The translations under genes were made by a program, and so were the position numbers. Of a stretch of 64,000 bases of DNA, positions 22,218 through 23,538 are shown piece after piece. Under the pieces are notes generated by a model. The model ran no database searches and was not told where the DNA came from. It worked only from the letters and a program-made list of their open reading frames with translations. This DNA is from Longimicrobiales bacterium. Lineage in GTDB: Bacteria; Gemmatimonadota; Gemmatimonadetes; Longimicrobiales; Gaopeijiaceae. The DNA lies in NCBI GenBank assembly GCA_965197725.1, contig CBDANQ010000053.1, forward strand, positions 19,289 through 83,288. Reading direction: 5' to 3'. Within the stretch, counting starts at the first letter, position 1, and each line of letters begins with the position of its first letter.

Positions 22218-22315
22218 TTGGGCACCCCTCTATCTACGCGGTAGCCGCCTTCCAGGGCGGCGTTCCGGCGGATGATGGCTTCGAACATGGCGGACAAGAT
22301 GCTGGACAGCTGCCT

Positions 22316-23474
22316 TGTATGACGACGAATAGGTAGTTTCGTTGGGTACACAGGGTCGGTAGCCCGTCCCGCCTAGGGTCCTAGAGACCGATTGTTAGCG
22401 TGGGCGCCGTCCCTTCTAGATCGTGATGAGTCCGAACAGTTGTTGGGGCCGAGGGAGCCCGGATCTGCAAGGTAGGACGATGCACGATCATCCTCCCGAG
22501 TCTGGAGAGAGGGATGTCTGAGGCCGAGGCGTACGTAGGGATCGATGTCTCAAAGGCAGAGCTCGAGGTGGCGGTAGAAGACGAGGGGTGGACGGTCTCG
22601 AACGACGAATCTGGGATCGAAATGCTTGTTGAGCAGCTGTGCGAGCGTCCGGTTGAGCTAGTCGTTCTGGAAGCGACCGGCGGGTACGAGATGCCGGCGG
22701 CGGCGGCACTCGCCGAAGCGGGGATCCCGGTGGTGGTAGCGAACCCGCGGCAGGTGCGCGACTTCGCGCGGGCAACGGGCCAGCTCGCCAAGACGGACCG
22801 GATCGACGCGAGGGTATTGGCGCTGTTCGGCGAGCGGGTGCGGCCAGAGGTGCGGGTGCTGCCGGACGAGGACACCCAGCAGTTAACGGCCCTTCTGGCC
22901 CGTCGTCGTCAACTGCTCGAGATGATGGTCGCGGAGAAGAACCGGCTGAAGATGGCGTCCACCACGGTGGCGAAGGACATCGGCGAGCACATCGAGTGGC
23001 TCAAGCGCAAGCTGAAGTCCGTGGACTCGGAACTCGAGCGTCGCATCAAGGCGAGCCCGGTGTGGCGCGCGAAGGAGGATCTGCTGCGGAGCGTACCGGG
23101 GATCGGTCCGGTCGTCTCACGCACGCTGATCGGAGAGCTCCCCGAGCTCGGGCAGCTGAACCGGCAACAGATCGCTGTGCTTGCCGGCGTCGCCCCTCTG
23201 AACCGGGACTCGGGTACGTTGAGAGGTAAGCGAATGGTCTGGGGAGGCCGTCGTTCCGTACGCGTGGCGTTGTACATGGCGGCCCTGACCGCTAGTCAGC
23301 GTAATCCCGCGATCCGCGTCTTCTACCAGCGGCTCACAGAACGTGGCAAGCCTCCGAAAGTCGCCCTCACCGCCTGCATGCGTAAGTTGCTTGTGATCGC
23401 CAACGCTATGGTTCGAGACGGCGTATCCTGGGACCCCACCCACGCTTCAGAGCTTGAGTTCGCACACAGTTGCT
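22316..23474 (+). mobile_element. IS110-family element (IS621-like, non-coding left end)
   Basis: CT cores at 22314-22315 and 23473-23474; circle junction ACAGTTGCT|TGTAT; no terminal IRs or TSD. Confidence 0.88.
22330..22500 (+). ncRNA. Predicted IS110 bridge RNA
   Basis: Two internal loops carry guides GTCCCGCCT / TTGTTAG (target) and ACAGTTGTT / TGCAAG (donor), matching the flanks and the circle junction. Confidence 0.75.
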
Positions 23475-23476
23475 GA
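22514..23476 (+). CDS. IS110-family DEDD recombinase/transposase
   Basis: [34 protein letters not shown] motifs. Confidence 0.95.
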
Positions 23477-23538
23477 CAAGCCCTGAAGGCTGAAGAAGGC
23501 TGCTTTACCGCGTAGGCGGCTTCCCGCCTCGCATGGTC

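What the first reader, a model, noticed from the sequence alone, without database searches (positions are those of the whole stretch)
22300..23530. IS110 whose bridge RNA appears programmed to target the integron attC core (GCCTAAC)
Seen: CT cores at both ends. The left non-coding end holds donor guides ACAGTTGTT (22436-22444) and TGCAAG (22466-22471), matching the circle junction ACAGTTGCT|TGTA. It also holds target guides GTCCCGCCT (22366-22374) and TTGTTAG (22392-22398) around a GGTC/GACC hairpin. These spell an ideal target GTCCCGCCTAACAA. The actual site is CAGCTGCCT|GACAA: the right guide matches with one wobble, the left only 5/9. Established: this is the IS621-type bridge RNA layout, GCCTAAC fits the attC RYYYAAC core, and attC targeting is known for IS1111-group elements. 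Inference: this IS621-like element is RNA-guided to attC sites, and here it sits in a degenerate attC oriented like the neighbouring cassettes.
Basis: partly seen in the sequence, partly recalled or inferred. Interest (0 to 1): 0.8.

Follow-up and report, generated by a model that had tools for sequence, protein, structure and literature searches.

The report
RNA-guided IS110 aimed at integron sites
This is an intact jumping gene whose guide RNA spells the edge of integron recombination (attC) sites, and its relatives often sit there, but this copy and most of its sister copies landed on look-alike sequences elsewhere.

Summary
The element is an intact IS621-like IS110 (22314-23474) with an upstream two-loop bridge RNA. 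All four guides lie at the stated coordinates. An empty orthologous site in G002 confirms the ends and a single CT core. Across 100 insertion sites of relatives, guides match targets at 87-98% of positions -2 to +5. The attC programming holds for the lineage: 33 of 81 sites with a right guide ending GTTAG abut an attC, against 0 of 19 with other guides. Two distal guide bases track which end is used: target AACAA goes with the R'' end (8 of 8), AACG- with the R' end (25 of 25). The claim about this site fails. Neither an attC model nor a rule-based test finds an attC here or at the empty site. Only 3 of 17 near-identical copies sit in attC; the working target is short and loose. RNA-guided attC targeting is published for IS1111 elements; my searches found no paper on it for the IS110 group. 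This scan noted a similar case before on other DNA. Verdict: new variant of a known kind.

The parts
22314..23474 (+). IS110-group insertion sequence, 1161 bp counting both CT cores
   Evidence: Same ends in 2 more G000 copies and 13 G007 copies; empty site in G002
22307..22315 (+). Left target half with CT core; 5 of 9 match to the left target guide
22316..22513 (+). Left non-coding end, predicted bridge RNA gene
   Evidence: Fold (z -1.0 alone); consensus fold with covariation in 47 relatives; expression not shown
22318..22323 (+). Candidate -10 box of the circle-junction promoter (4 of 6)
   Evidence: inference, weak
22351..22416 (+). Target-binding stem-loop (approximate limits)
22366..22374 (+). 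Left target guide; mainly its 3' four bases plus core are used
22377..22389 (+). Inner hairpin of the target loop
22392..22398 (+). Right target guide TTGTTAG, complementary to CTAACAA, the top-strand R'' end of attC
22419..22489 (+). Donor-binding stem-loop
22436..22444 (+). Left donor guide
   Evidence: first 7 bases equal the element's own right end in 98 of 100 sites (the parser allowed one mismatch, so partly by construction)
22466..22471 (+). Right donor guide
22514..23476 (+). DEDD recombinase, 320 aa, intact (D11, E53, D95, D98, S233 by my count); its stop codon is completed by two target bases
   Evidence: PF01548, PF02371; NF033542, 230 bits over cut-off 140; ISCro4 E 5.5e-41, IS621 E 2.7e-40
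23454..23459 (+). Candidate -35 box of the circle-junction promoter (4 of 6; 17-nt spacer after circularisation)
   Evidence: inference, weak
23466..23474 (+). Right end: left donor half with CT core
23475..23479 (+). Right target half GACAA (one wobble to the guide); not the start of an attC
22232..22300 (-). Left flank: truncated 5' end of a multicopy gene family, kinase-like by my reading
   Evidence: Many genome matches; a related ORF start with a glycine-rich loop in L218; no family scan of it

Best explanation
An active IS621-like IS110 element. After excision as a circle it is inferred to make a two-loop bridge RNA. One loop pairs with the joined ends, the other with the target, and the DEDD recombinase recombines the two CT cores without duplication. 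In this lineage the target loop is set to the R box of integron attC sites (N-C-CT-AAC-NN). The two distal bases of the right guide select the end: TTGTTAG reads the top-strand R'' end, NCGTTAG the bottom strand at the R' end. Recognition rests on about 9-11 bases with G-U wobble. Where attC sites are scarce, most copies therefore land on look-alike sequence, and the window copy is one of these. Shown by sequence: anatomy, ends, guide-target match, attC adjacency, strand rule. Inferred: RNA expression, circle, promoter, chemistry (by analogy with IS621), and that attC sites are what kept the guide fixed.
For: Guide-target match against permuted guides (100 sites, 70 guide pairs); within the 54 GTTAG pairs the variable positions still match (+4 0.94 vs 0.54, +5 0.88 vs 0.34). 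attC model (38 unoccupied sites): adjacent hit at 33 of 81 GTTAG-guide sites (38 no hit, 10 flank too short) and 0 of 19 other-guide sites (17 no hit, 2 too short). Rule-based test: 27 of 69 against 0 of 17, shuffled flanks 0.15%. Strand rule 8 of 8 and 25 of 25; in 66 unoccupied attCs position +4 is never G on the top strand and always G on the bottom. The arrays are real integrons: 7 attCs in L049 next to an IntI fragment; G000 has an IntI. This element: 3 of 16 two-flank sites in G000 and G007 are attC, about 3 of 8 detected attCs are occupied, and 3 of 6 occupied AACAA sites are attC against 2-8 of 148 free ones (Fisher p 0.0003-0.005).
Against: 13 of 16 copies in G000 and G007, and a further copy in G127, are not in attC. 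G007 holds 13 copies and no IntI was found in it (97% complete). In a held-out set from the host family, only 1 of 8 parsed GTTAG-guide sites with both ends had an adjacent model hit. Relatives are not independent: the tree gives only 4 and 3 independent pairs for the two trait links, none contrary but too few for significance. A separate Chloroflexota branch has GTTAG guides and 0 of 5 attC sites. The attC model is tuned to the same loci. No direct evidence that the RNA is made.
Confidence: 0.82

Rival explanations
1. One reading: the window copy sits in a decayed attC of a cassette array.
For: The 24 bases after the core resemble an attC 5' arm slightly (top 1.7% of 1839 similar genome sites; 2 of 29 with the same right target score as high). 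A lone attC 3' half lies 1.9 kb away.
Against: No model hit here or at the empty orthologue; no matching 3' arm; score 5.1 against at least 20.8 for real arms; the strand is opposite to the neighbouring genes; the same unpaired sequence is kept in G002.
Confidence: 0.12
2. No real attC preference: the guide reads a short CTAAC motif, and attC occupancy reflects only that such motifs are rare in GC-rich genomes, common in attC, and harmless to interrupt there.
For: Most copies of this element lie off attC; sequence pairing alone explains the landing; the Chloroflexota branch uses GTTAG without attC. Loss of insertions in genes would inflate the enrichment.
Against: The GTTAG guide is kept across branches down to about 57% identity while neighbouring guide bases vary. 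Its variable bases take the values that attC ends offer. Only 3 of 728 CTAAC sites in G000 pass the attC rule (one attC counted on both strands), against 27 of 69 insertion sites.
Confidence: 0.25
3. Structure-assisted targeting: the recombinase also prefers the folded or extruded attC hairpin, beyond guide pairing.
For: L191 is a full attC hit with only 1 of 7 left-guide matches; enrichment among AACAA sites; 4 relatives insert inside the central loop of attCs.
Against: One case only; many insertions in DNA with no hairpin; retention bias is not excluded.
Confidence: 0.15

Closest known systems
IS621 and ISCro4 (IS622) bridge recombinases, IS110 group (PMC11208160, passages and supplement search; 10.1101/2025.05.14.653916, passages)
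   Same: DEDD recombinase; long left non-coding end, short right end; target loop before donor loop; CT core in all four pairings; no duplication. Donors of this type and a few GCCTAAC targets occur in the paper's supplementary alignments.
   Different: Different guides and target. IS621's own target is ATCAGGCCTAC (that this lies in REP repeats is recalled). The main text names attC only in a reference, and 'integron' was absent from the supplements searched (file 2 unreadable, file 3 not searched, files 4-5 partly cut). The distal left guide is much looser here.
IS1111-attC group: ISKpn4, ISPst6, ISPa25, ISPa21 (PMC11187229, passages, section 13, supplement search; Tetu and Holmes 2008 and Post and Hall 2009 seen only as cited)
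   Same: RNA-guided DEDD element that lands at a fixed point of attC sites; for ISKpn4 and ISPst6 the guide RNA was purified and matched to the target.
   Different: Those carry the guide RNA downstream of the gene and have sub-terminal inverted repeats; here it is upstream. They insert near the 5' end of attC on the antisense strand (PMC3001079). This lineage enters R'' in the sense direction or R' in the antisense direction, at the CT next to the AAC triplet. Their exact base was not available to me, and no IS1111 protein was in my tree.
Group IIC-attC introns (PMC3001079, passages)
   Same: RNA-based mobile element specialised on attC sites.
   Different: Retroelement inserting into the bottom strand; unrelated chemistry.
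ISEc32, ISMno7 and a Klebsiella plasmid IS110 (nearest named elements, 46-53% identity)
   Same: Same left-end type and donor-loop layout; group with the lineage in the tree.
   Different: Their targets were not tested for attC; their target loops differ by eye.

Membership tests
IS110 group (IS621-like bridge system) | DEDD RuvC-like domain plus Tnp domain with catalytic serine | tested here: met
   D11, E53, D95, D98, S233 present
IS110 group (IS621-like bridge system) | Long non-coding region upstream of the gene, short right end | tested here: met
   198 bp upstream; the gene runs to the right core
IS110 group (IS621-like bridge system) | Two internal loops with left/right guides for target and donor | tested here: met
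IS110 group (IS621-like bridge system) | Guides covary with insertion sites | tested here: met
   held-out sites follow their right guides
IS110 group (IS621-like bridge system) | Recombination at a 2-bp core without target duplication | tested here: met
   Empty site with one CT in G002
IS110 group (IS621-like bridge system) | Circular intermediate with junction promoter | tested here: inconclusive
   4/6 and 4/6 boxes at 17 nt; no circle joint among contigs
IS110 group (IS621-like bridge system) | Bridge RNA is expressed and bound by the recombinase | not testable with these tools
   Only contigs were available; cover was flat over RNA and gene
IS1111-attC group | Guide RNA region downstream of the gene | tested here: not met
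   Guides are upstream; no right non-coding end
IS1111-attC group | Sub-terminal inverted repeats of 7-17 bp | tested here: inconclusive
   None seen by eye at the ends; only the 3-4 bases beside the donor were tabulated; no inverted-repeat search run
IS1111-attC group | Transposase falls in the IS1111-attC clade | not tested
   No IS1111 protein was held as a locus; by eye the N-terminal motif is GIDVSK here and AVDLAK in ISKpn4 and ISPa25
IS1111-attC group | Inserts at a fixed point of attC sites | tested here: met
   For the lineage; for 3 of 17 copies of this element; not for the window copy
attC site (window insertion site) | AAC and GTT triplets in paired R boxes | tested here: not met
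   GAC in place of AAC; no paired GTT box
attC site (window insertion site) | Paired L boxes with extrahelical bases; covariance-model hit | tested here: not met
   (own model, not IntegronFinder's)

The most novel reading that the evidence does not exclude
A second, independent RNA-guided invasion of integrons that does not break the site. The element lands at the outer edge of an R box, so both triplets, both L boxes and the extrahelical bases stay on one side. The attC may then still recombine, and the element would travel as cargo of a cassette. A two-base change in the guide would decide whether it joins the upstream cassette (R'') or the downstream one (R'), and a third sub-branch has moved into the attC loop. 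After insertion the R boxes keep 5-6 of 7 pairs in 22 of 25 cases and still score 20-75 bits.
Probability: 0.35. Interest if true: 0.7.

Novelty: new variant of a known kind. Interest (0 to 1): 0.45.

Why it matters
It gives a natural series of bridge-RNA reprogramming with a readable outcome: to one attC end, to the other, into the loop, and away from attC altogether. It shows convergence with the IS1111-attC group from the other branch of the family. It makes testable an open point that PMC11616780 says has little experimental evidence: whether such insertions disable or spare cassette recombination. It also shows how loose a natural bridge guide can be, which bears on off-target rules. The principle itself is published, and this copy is off target, so the gain is moderate.

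Tried and rejected
Degenerate attC at the site: rejected on four tests. A larger inverted repeat around the site that I first took for a hairpin element: its left arm is a repeated gene-start remnant. Rfam: no family at the locus. Promoter/terminator scan of the linear element: nothing. Sequencing runs: two RNA and two DNA runs laid, contigs only; flat cover, no circle joint, so no evidence either way on expression. A first crude attC scan was too strict and was replaced. The G007 parse failed and was redone. Rows dropped: of 162 loci examined, 48 lacked an end, a flank or a parsable loop, 7 were duplicates, and 7 more had an unclear register or were duplicates. L135 passes the rule test probably by pairing with a different downstream attC; L140 passes the rule test but has no model hit. 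The C27 copy has a deletion between two CTAG sites, so its two flanks may not belong together. Tree: quick method only; L067 missing; the row that I labelled IS1111-type (L222) proved to have an upstream non-coding end, so the tree holds no IS1111 member and cannot show independent origin by itself. Phylogenetic pair tests were underpowered. Tetu and Holmes 2008 is not held. Literature searches listed no paper on IS110-group attC targeting; subscription papers and ISfinder were not searchable. A look-up of earlier findings by sequence and by genome found nothing.

Full report
Observation. The window holds a 320-aa IS110 recombinase at 22514-23476, closest among solved structures to ISCro4 and IS621. 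The four guides and both CT cores are at the coordinates given. The element spans 22314-23474. Two more copies with both ends and one left end occur in the same genome. Thirteen copies differing at 6-7 bases occur in G007, another genus. The uninterrupted site, with one CT, is present in G002. The upstream region folds no better than shuffles alone (z -1.0), but 47 relatives give a two-loop consensus with 15 of 28 pairs showing two-sided changes.

Guides predict targets. I fetched 159 related loci, parsed ends and loops, and kept 100 sites with 70 distinct guide pairs (dropped rows are listed under Tried and rejected). Positions -2, -1 and +1 to +5 match the guide at 0.87-0.98, far above permuted guides (p 0.0002). 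Positions -4 and -3 match at 0.60-0.68, and -7 to -5 at 0.31-0.42. So the right guide and the inner left guide do the work. In a held-out set from the host family, the right guide again predicted the right target in all 10 parsed sites with both ends, 9 of them at all five positions.

Is the target attC? I used two tests. A rule-based score (paired R boxes, L boxes with one extra base, further stem) passed 27 of 69 sites whose right guide ends GTTAG and 0 of 17 others, with 0.15% for shuffled flanks. A covariance model built from 38 unoccupied attCs of these loci hit directly beside the element at 33 of 81 GTTAG sites and 0 of 19 others. Several loci are plain cassette arrays; L049 has seven attCs and an IntI fragment. 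The landing point is always the CT before the AAC triplet. Targets reading AACAA are at the top-strand R'' end (8 of 8); targets reading AACG- are at the R' end on the bottom strand (25 of 25). Free attCs offer G at that position on the bottom strand in 66 of 66 cases and never on the top. Four relatives in one sub-branch insert inside the central loop (three above threshold, one at 22). Nested branches with changed guides have no attC. These counts are not independent; the tree allows only 3-4 independent pairs, none contrary.

This element. Of 16 two-flank sites in G000 and G007, the consensus is about C-N-R-C-CT-R-A-C-R-A. Three are attCs, all entered at R'' (L002, L191, L193). A seventeenth, in G127, is not. 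The model detects 3 attCs in G000 and 5 in G007 (lower bounds; 150 candidates scored per genome), so about 3 of 8 are occupied. Among perfect AACAA sites, 3 of 6 occupied ones are attC against 2-8 of 148 free ones (Fisher p 0.0003-0.005); loss of insertions in genes may inflate this. G000 has an IntI; none was found in G007. In the held-out family set only 1 of 8 GTTAG sites had an adjacent attC hit, so occupancy in these hosts is low.

The window site. It is not an attC by either test, in either orientation, occupied or empty. The bases after the core resemble a 5' arm slightly (top 1.7%), on the strand opposite to the neighbouring genes. The left flank is a truncated, multicopy gene start. 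The site is best read as a loose guide match with one G-U wobble, as in 5 of 16 copies.

Mechanism. By analogy with IS621 (PMC11208160, passages): excision to a circle, a junction promoter (weak match), a bridge RNA pairing with donor and target, and exchange at the CT cores. Expression and circle were not shown; the runs available were contigs only. Because insertion is at the outer edge of an R box, the AAC and GTT triplets, the most conserved attC positions (PMC4889954, passage), stay in place with the L boxes. R-box pairing falls from mostly 6-7 to mostly 5 of 7. Whether such sites still recombine is untested.

Comparison and novelty. RNA-guided attC targeting is published for IS1111 members with a downstream guide RNA (PMC11187229, passages). 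They insert near the 5' end of attC on the antisense strand (PMC3001079, passage). This element fails the IS1111 layout and meets the IS110-group features that could be tested. Six searches listed no paper on attC targeting by the IS110 group, though relatives occur unremarked in the IS621 paper's supplementary data (not all files searchable). Earlier notes of this scan describe an IS110 element at the CT of R'' in other genomes; I could not check their DNA. Verdict: new variant of a known kind; the lineage-level claim holds, the site-level claim does not; interest 0.45.

Noticed in passing
window 17348-18848: DDE insertion sequence (DUF772 plus DDE_Tnp_1) that targets CTAG, with dozens of copies in G000; it has interrupted the bridge-RNA region of two sister IS110 copies (C18, C27) at CTAG sites.
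   Followed up: partly
window 20446-20475 (- strand): Lone 3' half of an attC just upstream of the epimerase gene (score 22.3), with a more decayed relative near 20870; suggests relic cassettes on the - strand.
   Followed up: partly
window 22148-22300: Short 5'-end remnants of two multicopy gene families, one kinase-like, recur truncated and joined to unrelated DNA at dozens of places in G000 and its relatives. Cause unexplained.
   Followed up: no
window 23474-23476: The recombinase's stop codon is made of the last core base and two target bases; all 16 sites supply TAA or TGA.
   Followed up: partly
L186 (G002), about 1440-1500: An internally deleted remnant of a related IS110 sits at a paralogue of the same locus.
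   Followed up: no
L153, L121, L158, L150: A sub-branch inserts into the central loop of attC sites, at CTAACGC motifs that sometimes occur in tandem.
   Followed up: partly
G007 and G127: The element is 99% identical in three host genera, with 13 copies in G007: recent transfer and expansion.
   Followed up: partly
L082, L085-L088: A Chloroflexota branch with guide GGGTTAG targets CCCTAACCC sites followed by a short hairpin-like repeat, not attC.
   Followed up: no
window 25423-25465 and 19054-19096: A 43-nt repeat of part of the tRNA at 19024-19096; may mark an island end or a second tRNA.
   Followed up: no
L221 (G000 C32) 6977-7960 and 9966-10060: Integron integrase gene with one attC downstream on the same strand, next to a copy of the CTAG-targeting element.
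   Followed up: partly
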